A DNA stretch of 51,854 nucleotides from Shigella phage JK16. This document shows positions 15,854-20,167 of this stretch, piece by piece (position 1 is the stretch's first letter; every line of letters starts with the position of its first letter). Below the pieces are notes generated by a model, which saw nothing but the letters and a program-made list of their open reading frames with translations, did not search any database and was not told the DNA's origin. The stretch lies in the sequence record MK962751, one strand, 5' to 3'. The position numbers and the translations under genes were made by a program.

Positions 15854-16318
15854 ATGAGCGAGCAATCATTAACTGACACGCTGCGCCGTGCAGCTATTAT
15901 GCTGGCTAATGGCGAGGAAGAGGCGATCAAGATTCCTGACGCGTATTTGCAGGTCCACATGTTCGGCAAGAAGTCGGCAAGCAATCCGGCGGCCTACATT
16001 CGCCAGATCATGAGTCGAGTTCCAGAAGTCGCCGAGCGGGGGCGCGTATCCGTTACCCGTGGAGTTTACGGGCCGGAAGATGAAAACTTCGGTAGCACTT
16101 TCTACGAGGTGCGCATTGTTGAAGGACGTCGCAAGGTTTACAACAAAGAGGCACTGGAAAGGGCAGTACGCCAGGCTAAGCGCAAGGTTGCAGAGGCGAT
16201 CATTGATATGTCACCAAACCTAGCAAACTATGCGCCGGAAGAGTATGAAACATTATCAAAGGCCGTCGCTGACTTTCACGCGATGATCAAAAAAACTTTC
16301 CTGGAGGATGAGCAATGA
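15854..16318 (+). CDS. hypothetical early protein
   Basis: 154 aa; AGGAGG RBS; first gene after strong promoter. Confidence 0.55.
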   Translation: MSEQSLTDTLRRAAIMLANGEEEAIKIPDAYLQVHMFGKKSASNPAAYIRQIMSRVPEVAERGRVSVTRGVYGPEDENFGSTFYEVRIVEGRRKVYNKEALERAVRQAKRKVAEAIIDMSPNLANYAPEEYETLSKAVADFHAMIKKTFLEDEQ

Positions 16319-16587
16319 AAAAGGCGTTAATCGGTGTTTTGGTGGCAATGGCATTCCTGACCGGATGTAAAGAAGATGGCGCGCATGTTGGCAATGTGCA
16401 GATGGCTAACCCTGGCGATGACTACAACGTAAGGGAGCTATTCACCGCTGACGGATGCACTGTTTACCGATTCTATGACGATCGCACTGTTTACTTCACC
16501 AACTGCAAGGGAACTACTAGCTGGGAAGTGTCGAAAAGCAATGGCAAAGGCACGAAGACAGAACATATGACCGTCGAGACAAAATAG
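16315..16587 (+). CDS. lipoprotein, possible superinfection-exclusion (Cor/Llp-like)
   Basis: Signal peptide with lipobox LTGC; 90 aa with three Cys. Confidence 0.5.
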   Translation: MKKALIGVLVAMAFLTGCKEDGAHVGNVQMANPGDDYNVRELFTADGCTVYRFYDDRTVYFTNCKGTTSWEVSKSNGKGTKTEHMTVETK

Positions 16588-17027: not shown

Positions 17028-18152
17028 ATGTTAAAACTTGCTGACATTAAATTCCCGATCACCTTCGAATCTCGCGGCATTGGTCATTACATTTTTACTG
17101 ATGAAAAAACATGCCATAAGGTTAATATGAATAGCGACAAACTAAGCCCATCAACAATGGAGATTGAACACTTTATTGATGCGCACAATACGCAGTACAA
17201 CGCACTTAAAGACTATGGCTATGCAATGCCAGGCTACACATGTTTGCACTACAAGCCATATAAAGGCCAGGTGTTGCCAGTAAAAGAGAACAAGCAATTC
17301 CTGCTGGATAGCGAGGAGATTGTATACCCGATCACCTTTGAAACGGCAGGAAATAGCGTTGTGACTTTCACATCTCGCGACAACGGCACATATGGAAACG
17401 GCTTGAGAACAAGTTATAATGTTGATTACTTCGTCGCCTGTCATAACATGGCTAATCCTAACAACGATAAGAACAAGGTGTACTACGTGCGCGATATTGA
17501 AAGGCAGTGGCCTAAGAAAGACTCCCAGGCAGAGATTCCGATGGTTCATATGAAAACCTGCGACTACAAAAAGCTGTGGTGCTTAAGTCTGGACAATATC
17601 AAGTATCCGATCACGTTCCGCACGACTGGTAAGTCAACGATTCGCTACACATCGCGCGAAAATGGCGTTTATAGCGATGGTACGAAATCAGGGTTGAAAG
17701 TTGATTTCTTTGTCAACGGTCACAATAGATACAATCCGCACAACGAAGAGGATAAAGTGTACTACGTGGAAGACATTACAAAACACTTATTTGGAGAAAC
17801 TCCATTCGGCGGCGGTAAGACGTCAATTCAAAAAATCATTGGCGATGAGATCCACAAAGCGGCTGCCGAAATGAAAGCTCCTGGAGGCTGGCGTATTGAC
17901 AAGAGCGCATTTGCAAATCAAGAAATCGTAACGCAGGGCGCAATTGAAGATATGCCAGTTGCAGCCACTCTAAAAGGAGTCCGGCTTGATGACGGCACCT
18001 GGTATGAAGTAACGGCTACACCAAAGACGATCGAGATTCATGATGACGTTGTTATCCTTCTGCTTCACTACGGCGGCTATAAAAACCGGACGATTGCAGG
18101 TGAGATCAGCATTAAGCGCGGAACGATGATTAAGTGGAAGGTGAAGATTTGA
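17028..18152 (+). CDS. protein with three tandem repeats of a ~60-residue unknown domain
   Basis: Repeats start KFPITFESRG / VYPITFETAG / KYPITFRTTG and end HN..NP.N.(D/E)..KVYYV.DI; AGGAG RBS. Confidence 0.6.
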   Translation: MLKLADIKFPITFESRGIGHYIFTDEKTCHKVNMNSDKLSPSTMEIEHFIDAHNTQYNALKDYGYAMPGYTCLHYKPYKGQVLPVKENKQFLLDSEEIVYPITFETAGNSVVTFTSRDNGTYGNGLRTSYNVDYFVACHNMANPNNDKNKVYYVRDIERQWPKKDSQAEIPMVHMKTCDYKKLWCLSLDNIKYPITFRTTGKSTIRYTSRENGVYSDGTKSGLKVDFFVNGHNRYNPHNEEDKVYYVEDITKHLFGETPFGGGKTSIQKIIGDEIHKAAAEMKAPGGWRIDKSAFANQEIVTQGAIEDMPVAATLKGVRLDDGTWYEVTATPKTIEIHDDVVILLLHYGGYKNRTIAGEISIKRGTMIKWKVKI

Positions 18153-18228
18153 GTTTGCTCACTGCGGCGCACGTCGCCGCATGGATCGGATTGTTTTCCT
18201 ACCTGTTTAGCTTTTATTGAGGTGAGAG

Positions 18229-18381
18229 ATGGCTACCTGGATTTTGCTGATTCTTATGATTGATGGCGGCGTTGACCATATCGAAATGAATAGCCAGCAA
18301 TCTTGCATTGAGGCACGAGAGCAGATCAAGAACAACAACAGTTTTTATGCGTACACTCACACGCTATGTATTAAGAAATAG
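18229..18381 (+). CDS. small membrane protein (50 aa), paralog of 19670 gene
   Basis: Found by manual translation; GAGGTGAGAG RBS; N-terminal hydrophobic helix, conserved C..EAR.Q and C; stop inside motif. Confidence 0.35.
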   Translation: MATWILLILMIDGGVDHIEMNSQQSCIEAREQIKNNNSFYAYTHTLCIKK

Positions 18382-18420
18382 CACTTTTTGTTAAAACTCA
18401 AATGTGGGGCCAGGTATAAT
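18379..18420 (+). promoter_or_regulatory. motif-class promoter (motif, hairpin GGCCA..TGGCC containing TATAAT)
   Basis: -10 hexamer 17 nt after motif. Confidence 0.45.
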
Positions 18421-18450
18421 GGCCTCACTTTCAACGAAGGAGATAAAACG

Positions 18451-18672
18451 ATGTACATTAAAAATAAGATGAAATGCGTTTCCGTTAACTATGCTTGCTC
18501 TGGCATGTTCAAGCCTGGCGAAATCTATACGGCGCAAAAACTGAAAACATCAACCGGATCTTTTTACGTGAGCAATAGTAAGGGGTATCGCATGTTCCTG
18601 AACGGCGGCGAAGGCACTAAGGTTATGGCACACGCTATGGTAATGGCTGAATTTGAGGAAGTGAAACAATGA
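18451..18672 (+). CDS. hypothetical protein, tandem paralog A
   Basis: AAGGAG RBS; shares motifs with next gene. Confidence 0.45.
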   Translation: MYIKNKMKCVSVNYACSGMFKPGEIYTAQKLKTSTGSFYVSNSKGYRMFLNGGEGTKVMAHAMVMAEFEEVKQ

Positions 18673-18914
18673 TCATTGAAAACAATTTTCTTTGCGTTAA
18701 GAGCAATAGACCATTCTTCACACCTGGCAAGGTGTACCAGGGCAAGAAGGACACAAGAGATGGTCACTCTTATCATGTTCACTGCAACAACGGATACAAG
18801 TTTTACCTTAACGGCGAGAATGGAACTGAGATTGTTGCGTTTGAAAACGTAGTTGCCGAGTTCGAGCAGATTACAGACGCGGAATTTGAGGAAGTGAAAG
18901 ATGAAAACAAATAA
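18669..18914 (+). CDS. hypothetical protein, tandem paralog B
   Basis: Overlapping start; shares motifs with previous gene. Confidence 0.45.
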   Translation: MIIENNFLCVKSNRPFFTPGKVYQGKKDTRDGHSYHVHCNNGYKFYLNGENGTEIVAFENVVAEFEQITDAEFEEVKDENK

Positions 18915-19122
18915 GCGCGTCAAGCACAGGTTTACTGATAACCACGGCGACGCGATTGATGTATACAAGTTCGGCGATCGCGTGTTTATTGATGGCACGT
19001 TTGAAGGTGGTCGTAGGCCGGATTTTAGGTCGATACTTACCGTTGACCAAGTGCGCAAGCTGGCAGATAAGTTAAATGATCTGGCAGATGAAATAGAATA
19101 CAAGCAAATCCATTTTAATTGA
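18901..19122 (+). CDS. hypothetical protein
   Basis: 73 aa ORF. Confidence 0.4.
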   Translation: MKTNKRVKHRFTDNHGDAIDVYKFGDRVFIDGTFEGGRRPDFRSILTVDQVRKLADKLNDLADEIEYKQIHFN

Positions 19123-19133
19123 TAGGTTTTATA

Positions 19134-19673
19134 ATGAAAAAATACACTTTCGAACTATGGGGCAAGAAGTACGAATTAATCACCAGCAAGCCGATTGTTA
19201 TCGTTGACCTGGACGGCACACTATCGGACGGATCGCATCGTTTGCATTTGCTGCCAACTGAAAGCTTGCACCTTACGGAATCGTGGCGCGAGTTTAACAG
19301 GGCCGCAGCAGGAGATTCACCGATTAAAAGCACGATCGCGATTGTTAACGGTTTGTGGGTGTCGGGATTTGCCATCGTCATCTTGACCGGACGCAGCGAC
19401 GAGGTGCGCTATGAAACCTGCAAATGGTTGAATGAGAGCGGCGTGAAGTTTGACGAAATCATCATGCGCCGCCAGGAGGACAACCGAAAGGATACGGTTA
19501 TTAAAGAAGAAGCCTTGCGCGCTATTGGCCTGGACAATATTGTTTGCGCCTTTGACGATTCGCCGAACGTTGTTAAGCACTTCCGCAGCCTGGGAATCAC
19601 AACCTATCAGGTCACGGAATACGACAAGCCACACGCTCACCTGCAATCTCACGGCGTGGAGTGTTTAAAATGA
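19134..19673 (+). CDS. HAD-superfamily phosphatase (nucleotidase-like)
   Basis: HAD motif I IVIVDLDGTLSDG; later TGRSD and acidic motif CAFDDSPN. Confidence 0.55.
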   Translation: MKKYTFELWGKKYELITSKPIVIVDLDGTLSDGSHRLHLLPTESLHLTESWREFNRAAAGDSPIKSTIAIVNGLWVSGFAIVILTGRSDEVRYETCKWLNESGVKFDEIIMRRQEDNRKDTVIKEEALRAIGLDNIVCAFDDSPNVVKHFRSLGITTYQVTEYDKPHAHLQSHGVECLK

Positions 19674-19831
19674 CTTGGTTGCTTTTAATCTTTGTCACAA
19701 GTTACAACTCCGCAGCTATTGAGTCGCAGGAGTTCCACGGCGAATCAAGATGCCAGGAAGCGCGAAAGCAAGTTATTCTCCACATGTCAGATAGTGGGAA
19801 GGATGTAACAGCGTTATGCGTTCGTAAATAG
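19670..19831 (+). CDS. small membrane protein (53 aa), paralog of 18229 gene
   Basis: Found by manual translation; start overlaps HAD stop (ATGA); hydrophobic N-terminus; stop inside motif. Confidence 0.35.
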   Translation: MTWLLLIFVTSYNSAAIESQEFHGESRCQEARKQVILHMSDSGKDVTALCVRK

Positions 19832-19872
19832 CACTTTTTGCAAAAAACAGATCATCGGGCTTGCTGTATAGT
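19829..19872 (+). promoter_or_regulatory. motif-class promoter (motif variant TTGCAAAAAAC, hairpin GGGCTT..AAGCCC containing TATAGT)
   Basis: 19 nt gap to TATAGT; leader CAACAACAAACGAGGATTAAATC ATG. Confidence 0.45.
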
Positions 19873-19903: not shown

Positions 19904-20167
19904 ATGGCTAACAAGATCGAGTTTTTTAAAGCTGTAGACATTATCGACGGCGCGCCTAGCTTCTTTGCTATCCATTCTATTGACGGCAAGGATATTGGGT
20001 ACAACGTTATCCGTCGAGATGGAATCTCAAAAATTAGTGACCTGGTAGGCCATATTGTGTCAAACGGGAAATGCGCATGGCCCGATTCGCCACGAGAGCC
20101 ACGCCGCCGCGACATGGTAGAGCCTGTTCTGCTTTACACTCTGGTAGTAGAGGGAGAAAATAAATGA
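19904..20167 (+). CDS. hypothetical protein
   Basis: 87 aa; GAGGA RBS. Confidence 0.45.
   Translation: MANKIEFFKAVDIIDGAPSFFAIHSIDGKDIGYNVIRRDGISKISDLVGHIVSNGKCAWPDSPREPRRRDMVEPVLLYTLVVEGENK

What the first reader, a model, noticed from the sequence alone, without database searches (positions are those of the whole stretch)
18229..19831. Two paralogous small membrane peptides, each appended to a larger gene and each ending in the conserved motif
Peptides MATWILLILMIDGGVDHIEMNSQQSCIEAREQIKNNNSFYAYTHTLCIKK and MTWLLLIFVTSYNSAAIESQEFHGESRCQEARKQVILHMSDSGKDVTALCVRK share an N-terminal hydrophobic helix, C.EAR.Q and a second Cys before a Lys-rich end. Both are below the 60 aa cut-off of the ORF track and both stop in the TAG of a motif copy. 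The second starts with ATGA overlapping the HAD phosphatase stop.
Basis: seen in the sequence. Interest (0 to 1): 0.5.

Follow-up and report, generated by a model that had tools for sequence, protein, structure and literature searches.

The report
Two paralogous soluble phage mini-proteins
The two tiny genes are real, related and conserved, but they encode small soluble folded proteins of a widespread, uncharacterised phage family, not membrane peptides, and ending in the repeated motif is a general habit of this genome.

Summary
The window is the whole genome of a T1-like phage, Shigella phage JK16. Both ORFs exist exactly as described: 18229-18381 (50 aa) and 19670-19831 (53 aa, ATGA overlap with the HAD phosphatase stop). 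They are true paralogues: BLASTP E 3e-6, both hit PHROG 5579, and there is no third copy.

Both are already annotated as hypothetical proteins in this phage and its relatives, including T1 ORF69. Codon changes show purifying selection (12 synonymous to 1 non-synonymous).

The family is large, with 306 clusters at 50% identity. It occurs in Drexlerviridae, Krischvirus and many uncultured phages, and has no Pfam, NCBIfam, PADLOC or PDB relative.

The membrane reading fails:
- The N-terminal hydrophobic run has a median of 8 residues and no basic n-region.
- AlphaFold models it with high confidence (pLDDT 89 and 94) as the first strand of a beta-beta-alpha-beta fold.
- Conservation periodicity and covariation agree with that fold.

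Two cysteines are invariant, and the terminal Lys covaries with Glu19.

The motif is the published Drexlerviridae 21-nt repeat. Nine of its 18 copies supply the stop codon of an upstream gene. Function remains unknown; a soluble oligomeric protein binder is my best guess.

The parts
18229..18381 (+). Mini-protein paralogue 1 (50 aa). It is JK16 gp34, YP_009900919.1, and the positional orthologue of T1 ORF69.
   Evidence: ORF and translation. PHROG 5579, E 5.7e-22. Exact match to the JK16 protein. 48% identical to T1 ORF69 by tblastn, and it follows the T1 ORF70 homologue as in T1. AF2 pLDDT 88.8, beta-beta-alpha-beta.
19670..19831 (+). Mini-protein paralogue 2 (53 aa, QEG04994.1). Its ATG overlaps the phosphatase stop codon (ATGA), which suggests translational coupling.
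   Evidence: PHROG 5579, E 3.5e-9. 12 synonymous to 1 non-synonymous codon differences against pSf-1. AF2 pLDDT 93.8, strands 2-10, 15-23 and 45-52, helix 25-39. Orthologues directly follow the phosphatase gene in egaa, KarlJaspers, Henu7, Motto and PMBT35.
18219..18225 (+). Shine-Dalgarno GAGGTGA of paralogue 1, 3 nt before the ATG
   Evidence: Read from the sequence.
19658..19661 (+). Shine-Dalgarno GGAG of paralogue 2, inside the 3' end of the phosphatase gene
   Evidence: Read from the sequence. The same GGAG lies at the same distance in egaa, KarlJaspers and Henu7.
19134..19673 (+). Stand-alone HAD 3'-phosphatase (PNKP phosphatase domain only). Relatives annotate it as 'polynucleotide kinase'.
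   Evidence: Pfam HAD_PNKP, E 3.4e-21. PHROG 415. 44% identical to the Krischvirus 3'-phosphatase.
17028..18152 (+). 374-aa homologue of T1 ORF70, the gene upstream of paralogue 1
   Evidence: BLASTP against T1 ORF70, E 5e-38, with the N-terminal module matching three times. PHROG 7116.
18376..18396 (+). Copy of the Drexlerviridae 21-nt direct repeat (AAATAGCACTTTTTGTTAAAA). Its TAG is the stop codon of paralogue 1. A TTAAAA-18-TATAAT promoter-like site runs 18391-18420.
   Evidence: The consensus aaATAGCACnnnTTGnTAAAA was published for phage TLS (PMC11447400).
19826..19846 (+). Second copy of the 21-nt repeat (AAATAGCACTTTTTGCAAAAA). Its TAG is the stop codon of paralogue 2. A TATAGT lies at 19867-19872 inside a GGGCTT/AAGCCC hairpin.
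18149..18220 (+). 23-codon hydrophobic micro-ORF (TTG start overlapping the upstream TGA) that fills the spacer before paralogue 1. It belongs to the same insertion/deletion cassette.
   Evidence: The peptide is conserved in phage egaa, where it has an ATG start and 52% identity on diverged DNA.

Best explanation
The two ORFs are genuine, translated early accessory genes of a T1-like phage. They are paralogous members of a widespread, uncharacterised phage mini-protein family (PHROG 5579/3766).

Fold. Each folds into a compact soluble beta-beta-alpha-beta domain of about 50 residues.
- The hydrophobic N-terminus (xxW-I-L-I-I) is the first strand of a three-stranded sheet. It appears to be the central strand.
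- One helix (S22 cap, C26, A29, I33) packs on one face of the sheet.
- Glu19 and the C-terminal Lys covary as a likely salt bridge at one end of the domain.
- Two cysteines are invariant: one in the first turn of the helix and one three residues from the C-terminus.

Genome position. Each gene is the last cistron of one of two consecutive early transcription units. Its stop codon therefore falls in the TAG of the 21-nt repeat that heads the next unit. This also happens to many unrelated genes in this genome. Paralogue 1 descends from the T1 ORF69 position and sits on a dispensable insertion/deletion cassette. Paralogue 2 sits at the post-phosphatase position, and its start codon overlaps the phosphatase stop (ATGA).

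Function (inferred, not shown). Both faces of the first strand are hydrophobic, and by topology the helix covers only one face of the sheet. The protein probably buries the other face by dimerising or by docking onto a partner. I expect it to act in the cytoplasm as a small protein-binding modulator of a host or phage protein. The cysteine pair would serve as a structural cross-link or a shared metal site.
For: Real genes:
- The frames are conserved in 97 and 49 phage records.
- Codon changes are 12:1 and 13:0 synonymous to non-synonymous, almost all at third positions.
- Both have Shine-Dalgarno sites.
- Both are annotated CDSs in JK16, T1, pSf-1, ityhuna and Bas06.

Family:
- 306 clusters at E <= 1e-3, nearly all 47-65 aa.
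- All 142 aligned members hit PHROG 5579.
- C26 and C47 are invariant. W4 is 91% conserved, L6 97%, E19 86%, F20 90% and A29 99%.

Fold:
- Two independent AF2 runs give pLDDT 88.8 and 93.8 with the same topology.
- BFVD models of relatives superpose at TM 0.8-0.89.
- Conservation is i/i+2 in strand 1 and i/i+3/i+7 in the helix, and position 22 carries N-cap residues.
- MI-APC couplings are E19-K50 (z 8.2), 23-27, 8-15, 12-43, 8-45 and 11-44.

Not membrane: and the T1 annotation.

Operon-end position and generic use of the motif's TAG.

Cassette polymorphism of paralogue 1.
Against: No experiment bears on expression, localisation or function.

The invariant cysteine pair is unusual for a cytoplasmic E. 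coli-phage protein. It would be explained more simply by a periplasmic disulfide.

One automatic UniRef name for an orthologue of paralogue 2 is 'Secreted protein'. Its N-terminus (MTWLLLIFVTSYNSAA/IE) has a plausible signal-peptidase site.

I could not read the model coordinates, so the Cys-Cys distance and the strand order are inferred from topology and covariation only.

The covariation signals for strand 1 are modest (z 2.6-3.3). AF2 used the same alignments, so the two lines of evidence are not fully independent.

A C26F variant of paralogue 1 is recorded on 267 contigs, so at least that paralogue tolerates loss of one cysteine.

Confidence: 0.6

Rival explanations
1. Exported mini-proteins. 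The N-terminal hydrophobic run acts as a short, atypical Sec or YidC signal, cleaved or not. The remaining 35-aa strand-helix-strand peptide is locked by a DsbA-made C26-C47 disulfide in the periplasm and acts on an envelope target, for example in superinfection exclusion.
For: - There are exactly two cysteines in 138 of 142 members, and both are invariant.
- A hydrophobic run of 8-10 residues is within the range of a signal h-region, and it is followed by small residues (G/S/A at alignment columns 12-14).
- SAA/IE in paralogue 2 fits the -3,-1 rule.
- UniRef calls one orthologue 'Secreted protein'.
- The neighbouring operon ends in a lipoprotein gene.
Against: - 131 of 142 members have no Lys or Arg before the run, and 11 have an acidic residue there.
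- A 14-residue signal would be shorter than known E. coli signals (established knowledge).
- W4 and L6 are conserved at 91-97%, unlike signal peptides.
- Residues 8-12 covary with residues 15 and 43-45 of the supposed mature part.
- AF2 builds the segment into the sheet at pLDDT 88-95.
Confidence: 0.15
2. Small single-pass membrane peptides with an N-terminal transmembrane helix. They would work like holin or antiholin-type or membrane-perturbing phage peptides.
For: The hydrophobic N-terminus and basic C-terminus are visible in the sequence.
Against: - The run is 5-11 residues, median 8.
- The best 19-residue hydropathy is 1.22 and 1.05, with a family median of 1.19. Only 15 of 142 members reach 1.6.
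- GRAVY is negative.
- The segment is predicted as a strand, not a helix.
- The T1 annotation has no transmembrane note for ORF69, while neighbouring small ORFs carry one.
Confidence: 0.04
3. Accessory subunit or regulator of the stand-alone 3'-phosphatase. The start/stop overlap would deliver the mini-protein in step with the enzyme, and it would bind the enzyme and modulate its activity or specificity.
For: - The gene directly follows and overlaps the HAD/PNKP phosphatase gene in JK16, egaa, KarlJaspers, Henu7, Motto, PMBT35 and most of the 49 records with paralogue 2.
- In the unrelated Krischvirus, a tandem pair of family members lies about 1.2 kb upstream of a phosphatase that is 44% identical to this one.
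Against: - T1 has a single copy, 1.4 kb from its phosphatase gene and coupled to ORF70 instead.
- In Stevie the gene follows a 72-aa ORF.
- In seven metagenomic contexts the upstream gene has no HAD Pfam hit on record, and the neighbours differ every time.
- ATGA overlaps are the rule in these arrays of small genes.
- The linkage can be explained by inheritance or transfer of an early-region block.
Confidence: 0.1
4. Chance ORFs, or ORFs imposed by a non-coding constraint such as the promoter repeat or RNA structure, and not translated.
For: They are short, and the last two codons overlap a conserved DNA motif.
Against: - The excess of synonymous changes.
- Protein-level conservation down to 30% identity across phage families.
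- Confident fold predictions.
- Homologues without the motif keep the same C-terminus.
Confidence: 0.01

Closest known systems
PHROG 5579 (with 3766 and 6794), which includes T1 ORF69 / CPTT1_009, pSf-1 gp39 and gp43, and Bas06_0072
   Same: Both window proteins match full-length (E 5.7e-22 and 3.5e-9). They share the same length, the same invariant residues and the same genomic positions as the orthologues.
   Different: Nothing differs. They are ordinary members. The family has no assigned function and no Pfam, NCBIfam or PDB entry.
Drexlerviridae 21-nt direct repeat aaATAGCACnnnTTGnTAAAA, described for phage TLS and noted in T1, Rtp and Rogue1 (PMC11447400)
   Same: The consensus is the same and the repeat points in the direction of transcription. 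It starts 75-78 nt before the next start codon. The TTT and GAA sub-types are both present.
   Different: That paper leaves the function open (stoperator, enhancer site or UP element). It does not note that the TAG often serves as the stop codon of the preceding gene.
PeSL cassettes (promoter-early stem-loop) of T4-type phages RB49 and phi1 (PMC2839356)
   Same: A repeated promoter-type motif with a nearby stem-loop bounds small non-essential ORFs. One of them, the paralogue 1 cassette, is present or absent among close relatives exactly at the motif boundary.
   Different: The sequence motif and the phage family differ. No terminator activity, recombination or mini-circles have been shown here. 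This is an analogy only.
[not shown]
   Different: Sequence identity is 2-15% and no score indicates homology. There are no shared motifs, and the matches are not specific.

Membership tests
PHROG 5579 phage mini-protein family | Full-length match to the family HMM | tested here: met
   E 5.7e-22 (residues 1-50 on profile 1-52) and E 3.5e-9 (residues 1-53 on profile 2-52). All 142 aligned relatives also match.
PHROG 5579 phage mini-protein family | Signature derived here: N-terminal xxW-[IV]-L-[IL], E-F, S-x3-C-x2-A, and C-V-x-K near the C-terminus, in about 50 aa | tested here: met
   Both proteins carry W, L, C, A, C and the terminal K. Paralogue 1 has M in place of F20, and paralogue 2 has G in place of S22.
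Single-pass (bitopic) small membrane proteins | An uninterrupted hydrophobic segment of about 18 or more residues (Kyte-Doolittle 19-residue mean of at least 1.6) | tested here: not met
   The runs are 8-10 residues. The best windows score 1.22 and 1.05, and the family median is 1.19.
Single-pass (bitopic) small membrane proteins | The segment is predicted as a helix or TM by structure or topology predictors | tested here: not met
   AF2 predicts a beta-strand at pLDDT 88-95. The T1 record has no TM note for ORF69, while ORFs 67, 68 and 73 carry one. No dedicated TM predictor was available here.
Sec-type signal peptide | Positively charged n-region | tested here: not met
   Both proteins have no Lys or Arg before the hydrophobic run. 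The same holds for 131 of 142 family members.
Sec-type signal peptide | h-region of 7-15 residues followed by small residues at -3 and -1 | tested here: inconclusive
   The h-region length fits. SAA/I in paralogue 2 fits, but DGG/V in paralogue 1 is poor. Family columns 12-14 mix G, S and A with Y, K and N. No SignalP-type tool was available.
Sec-type signal peptide | The signal evolves independently of the mature domain | tested here: not met
   W4 is 91% and L6 97% conserved. Couplings 8-15, 8-45, 11-44 and 12-43 are among the top 25 of 1081 pairs.
Drexlerviridae 21-nt direct repeat (for the 'conserved motif') | Consensus aaATAGCACnnnTTGnTAAAA, oriented with transcription, about 76 nt upstream of a start codon | tested here: met
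   18376-18396 lies 75 nt before the ATG at 18451. 19826-19846 lies 78 nt before the ATG at 19904. There are 18 copies, oriented with the local genes.
PeSL-like mobile regulatory cassette | Strong promoter plus a stem-loop terminator, with recombination between copies producing gene gain or loss | tested here: inconclusive
   There is a promoter-like site (10 of 12 matches) and hairpins after many copies. The paralogue 1 cassette indel ends exactly at the motif. No T-tract terminators were found, and there is no evidence that the recombination junction lies inside the motif.

The most novel reading that the evidence does not exclude
The family is a widespread two-cysteine mini-protein (at least 306 clusters at 50% identity) that phages carry in one or two copies. 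It is linked to a stand-alone 3'-phosphatase in two unrelated coliphage lineages. It may act as a dedicated partner of that enzyme, or as a thiol- or metal-dependent inhibitor of a host factor such as a defence or RNA-repair component. In that case the hypervariable loop residue 38 of paralogue 1 (R, S, G, W or M among otherwise near-identical genes) would mark an interface under diversifying selection.
Probability: 0.12. Interest if true: 0.55.

Novelty: already known. Interest (0 to 1): 0.25.

Why it matters
As it stands, the result is a clean-up. Both ORFs are already annotated genes of a catalogued family, the motif is already published, and the membrane interpretation is wrong.

The modest value lies in the family description, which I did not find in the literature or in the curated libraries I searched:
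- a confident beta-beta-alpha-beta fold;
- an invariant cysteine pair and a covarying Glu-Lys pair;
- recurrent duplication, as dispersed paralogues in JK16 and as a tandem pair in Krischvirus;
- repeated linkage to a stand-alone 3'-phosphatase.

These features make it a tractable candidate for a small-protein functional study in well-behaved model phages (T1, BASEL Bas06).

Tried and rejected
- Sequence libraries found nothing. Pfam, NCBIfam and PADLOC scans of 142 members gave no hit. A profile search of PDB sequences gave E 1.1 at best.
- The search for related loci with the family alignment failed because no stretch was conserved enough. With single proteins it returned only 5 near-identical loci.
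- Seven metagenomic contexts showed arrays of small early genes but no recurrent neighbour.
- Literature searches for the PHROG id, for Drexlerviridae early transcription and for small proteins gave nothing on this family. The PNAS 2026 daunorubicin paper was irrelevant. The part of TLS supplementary table S2 that I read (gp01-gp41) lists no homologue of T1 ORF69.
- I considered and rejected several readings by inspection: a lipoprotein (no lipobox before the first Cys), a double-glycine leader (GG is not conserved and the leader is hydrophobic), and a thioredoxin- or glutaredoxin-like redox protein (no CxxC, different fold).
- The GTG start at 19661 for paralogue 2 is rejected because every family member begins 1-3 residues before the Trp.
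- The weak similarity between window ORF 18669-18914 and the Krischvirus ORF upstream of the tandem pair (E 0.011) is too weak to claim shared synteny.
Full report
**Identity of the window.** A 4-kb query around the finding matches 138 phage records. The best are 97-98% identical Tempevirinae (Drexlerviridae), such as ityhuna, Tuinin and swan01. An exact-sequence look-up shows that peptide 1 is 'hypothetical protein H1N78_gp34 [Shigella phage JK16]' on a contig of 51,854 bp, which is the window length. Peptide 2 is QEG04994.1 of the same phage. The window is therefore a complete T1-like phage genome, and both ORFs are already annotated CDSs.

**The observation.**
- Peptide 2 starts at ATG 19670, which overlaps the TGA (19671-19673) of a 179-aa protein. 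That protein is a stand-alone HAD/PNKP phosphatase domain (Pfam PF25109, E 3.4e-21).
- Peptide 1 is not overlapped with its upstream gene. It lies 76 nt downstream of the 374-aa ORF and has a strong Shine-Dalgarno, GAGGTGA, 3 nt before the ATG. Peptide 2 has GGAG 8 nt before its ATG.
- Both end in the TAG of exact copies of AAATAGCACTTTTTG.
- The similarity of the two peptides is beyond chance. BLASTP gives 31% identity and E 3e-6, and both match PHROG 5579. A family profile finds only these two ORFs in all six frames of the window.

**They are real genes.**
- tblastn finds peptide 1 in 97 phage records and peptide 2 in 49.
- Relatives annotate them as hypothetical proteins: ityhuna_5 and _10, pSf-1 gp39 and gp43, T1 ORF69 (CPTT1_009) and Bas06_0072.
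- Codon comparison of peptide 2 gives 12 synonymous to 1 non-synonymous differences (JK16 against pSf-1) and 13:0 (ityhuna against pSf-1). Almost all changes are at third positions.

**Two positional lineages.**
- The 374-aa upstream protein is a homologue of T1 ORF70 (E 5e-38), with its N-terminal module present three times. Peptide 1 is therefore the positional orthologue of T1 ORF69, to which it is 48% identical.
- Peptide 2 occupies the post-phosphatase position. The same position is seen in egaa, KarlJaspers, Henu7, Motto and PMBT35, always with a start/stop overlap.

**The family.** A profile search of 1.84 billion representative proteins gives 306 clusters at E <= 1e-3, nearly all 47-65 aa. 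In an alignment of 142 members with mean column identity of 19%:
- the only invariant residues are the two cysteines, C26 and C47 in peptide 1 numbering;
- W4 is 91% conserved, L6 97%, E19 86%, F20 90%, S22 73%, A29 99%, V48 78% and K50 75%;
- position 33 is hydrophobic in 99% of members.

No member matches Pfam, NCBIfam or PADLOC, and the profile matches no PDB sequence. The three PHROGs it hits have no function. The family also occurs in T4-like Krischvirus (RB49 group). There, two copies sit in tandem between nrdA and nrdB, about 1.2 kb upstream of a 3'-phosphatase that is 44% identical to the JK16 enzyme.

**Structure.** AlphaFold2 with a 33-sequence alignment gives pLDDT 88.8 for peptide 1 (strands 4-10, 15-20 and 43-49; helix 23-35). 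With the 142-sequence alignment it gives pLDDT 93.8 and pTM 0.74 for peptide 2, with the same beta-beta-alpha-beta topology. BFVD models of relatives superpose at TM 0.8-0.89. Several features that do not come from the AF2 models agree with this fold:
- Conservation in the N-terminal segment has i/i+2 periodicity (W4, L6).
- Conservation in the helix has i/i+3/i+7 periodicity (C26, A29, I33).
- Position 22 is occupied by classical N-cap residues (S, T, N, D).
- Corrected mutual information ranks E19-K50 first, at z 8.2. An acid-base pair is kept in 116 of 142 members, and the two residues are mostly lost together.
- The top 25 of 1081 pairs also include 23-27 (a helix turn), 8-15 (hairpin register) and 12-43, 8-45 and 11-44 (an antiparallel strand 1-strand 3 ladder).

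**Not a membrane peptide.**
- The hydrophobic run is 8-10 residues in these two proteins. The family median is 8 and the maximum is 11.
- The best 19-residue hydropathy windows are 1.22 and 1.05, against the usual threshold of 1.6. The family median is 1.19.
- 131 of 142 members have no basic residue before the run.
- The re-annotated T1 record marks predicted transmembrane domains on ORFs 73, 68 and 67, but not on ORF69.

A weaker rival survives. The invariant cysteine pair, the small residues after the run, the SAA/IE site of peptide 2 and one automatic 'Secreted protein' label are what an exported, disulfide-locked mini-protein would show. I give it about 0.15. The missing n-region charge, the strong conservation of W4 and L6, and the covariation of residues 8-12 with the rest of the domain all argue against a signal peptide.

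**The motif and the 'ending in the motif' point.** The motif is the 21-nt direct repeat aaATAGCACnnnTTGnTAAAA described for phage TLS. There it has 21 copies, is oriented with transcription, lies about 76 nt upstream of start codons, and is also noted in T1, Rtp and Rogue1. Its function is left open (PMC11447400).

JK16 has 18 copies. The two copies here start 75 and 78 nt before the next ATG. The first contains a TTAAAA-18-TATAAT promoter-like site. Nine of the 18 copies supply the TAG stop of an upstream ATG-ORF of 50, 53, 64, 90, 91, 139, 196, 257 or 522 aa. Three more have a stop codon directly abutting the TAG.

Ending in the motif therefore marks the last gene of a transcription unit in this compact genome and is not a property of the peptides. 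The terminal Lys is not an imprint of the AAA of the motif either. It is conserved family-wide, covaries with Glu19, and is present in Henu7 and Krischvirus, where no motif follows.

**Dispensability.** An alignment of the junction shows that the 229-nt block holding a 23-codon micro-ORF plus peptide 1 is present in JK16, ityhuna and pSf-1. It is cleanly absent in swan01 and KarlJaspers, where the ORF70-like gene runs straight into the repeat. Egaa retains only the micro-ORF. Peptide 1 is thus an accessory cassette bounded on its 3' side by the repeat. This resembles the PeSL cassettes of RB49 and phi1 (PMC2839356), but I did not show recombination at the motif. Peptide 2 is present in every relative examined.

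**Function.** Nothing tested identifies a function.
- Foldseek gives nothing below E 0.1.
- Seven metagenomic contexts show the gene in arrays of small early genes, often overlapping its upstream neighbour by 4 nt, with no recurrent partner.

My best inference is a soluble cytoplasmic mini-protein. Both faces of its first strand are hydrophobic, while by topology the single helix can cover only one face of the sheet. The protein should therefore dimerise or dock on a partner and act as a small binder or modulator. The cysteine pair would be a structural or metal site. This step is inference only.

The repeated linkage to the stand-alone 3'-phosphatase, in Drexlerviridae and again in Krischvirus, keeps a 'phosphatase partner' hypothesis alive at about 0.1. 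T1, Stevie and the metagenomic contexts do not show that linkage.

**Verdict.** Both genes, the family cluster and the motif are already in the public record, and the function is unknown. Interest is low to moderate.

Noticed in passing
window 18149-18220 (+): A 23-codon hydrophobic micro-ORF (LSLLTAAHVAAWIGLFSYLFSFY) has a TTG start overlapping the TGA of the 374-aa gene, and its stop lies inside the Shine-Dalgarno of peptide 1. Phage egaa has MSIYTLMHIAGWIGLFLYILMHY at the same place, with an ATGA overlap, 52% identical on diverged DNA. The best 19-residue hydropathy is 1.51-1.76. This is a better candidate for a small membrane peptide than the two reported ORFs, and it does not appear as a separate CDS in the records I inspected.
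   Followed up: partly
window 18149-18375, compared with L002, L016 and L017: The block holding the micro-ORF plus peptide 1 is an insertion/deletion polymorphism among close relatives. It is present in JK16, ityhuna and pSf-1 and absent in swan01 and KarlJaspers. Egaa keeps only the micro-ORF. The 3' boundary is exactly the AAATAGCAC repeat.
   Followed up: partly
window 18340-18342 (codon 38 of peptide 1): Among otherwise near-identical copies of peptide 1, residue 38 is R (AGG in pSf-1; the most frequent residue among the variants seen), S (AGT, this window), W (TGG, ityhuna), G or M. That is five alleles, all non-synonymous, in a surface loop, with almost no synonymous change elsewhere in the gene. 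This could be a hotspot or diversifying selection.
   Followed up: partly
peptide 1, residue 26 (window 18304-18306): A variant with the otherwise invariant first cysteine replaced by Phe (P0002) is recorded on 267 contigs. Either paralogue 1 tolerates the loss of this cysteine, or one lab-propagated phage was sequenced many times.
   Followed up: no
whole window, 18 copies (for example 3961, 5032, 16582, 18376, 19826, 21146, 22461, 26649, 51764 on +; 45828, 35050, 31296, 14673, 13368, 11451, 10459, 8297 on -): The 21-nt repeat aaATAGCACnnnTTGnTAAAA (published for TLS) heads most early transcription units. Its TAG is the stop codon of 9 upstream ORFs. The TTG-to--10 spacing is about 21-22 nt, too long for a TTGnnn -35 element. 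Many copies have a GC-rich hairpin between the repeat and the -10-like hexamer, or spanning the hexamer.
   Followed up: partly
window 17028-18152 (+): The 374-aa protein is a homologue of T1 ORF70 (161 aa). Its N-terminal 'KFPITFE...HN..NP' module is present three times, and the C-terminal half is conserved. No DNA-level repeat remains.
   Followed up: partly
window 18451-18672 and 18669-18914 (+): Two adjacent, overlapping small genes (73 and 81 aa) both hit PHROG 9122, so they look like another tandem paralogue pair in the same operon.
   Followed up: no
window 19134-19673 (+): The gene annotated as 'polynucleotide kinase' in most relatives contains only the HAD/PNKP 3'-phosphatase domain (179 aa, no kinase domain). 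It is 44% identical to the stand-alone 3'-phosphatase of Krischvirus. The annotation name is misleading.
   Followed up: partly
L007 1328-1668 (Escherichia phage UPWr_E1, Krischvirus): Two family members of 57 and 55 aa lie in tandem with start/stop overlaps between nrdA and nrdB. Most Krischvirus records listed show two places. The family has therefore duplicated independently in two phage lineages.
   Followed up: partly
window 16315-16587 (+): A 90-aa predicted lipoprotein (MKKALIGVLVAMAFLTGC lipobox; Pfam DUF4884, E 1e-7) is the last gene of the preceding unit and also stops in a repeat copy. It may be a superinfection-exclusion-type lipoprotein, but this was not examined.
   Followed up: no
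protein P0038 (125 aa, metagenomic): An ORF70-like N-terminal module is fused in frame to the mini-protein, which lacks its first strand. It is probably a deletion or frameshift product of a T1-like phage. P0003, P0004 and P0035 are similar chimeric or frameshifted variants.
   Followed up: no
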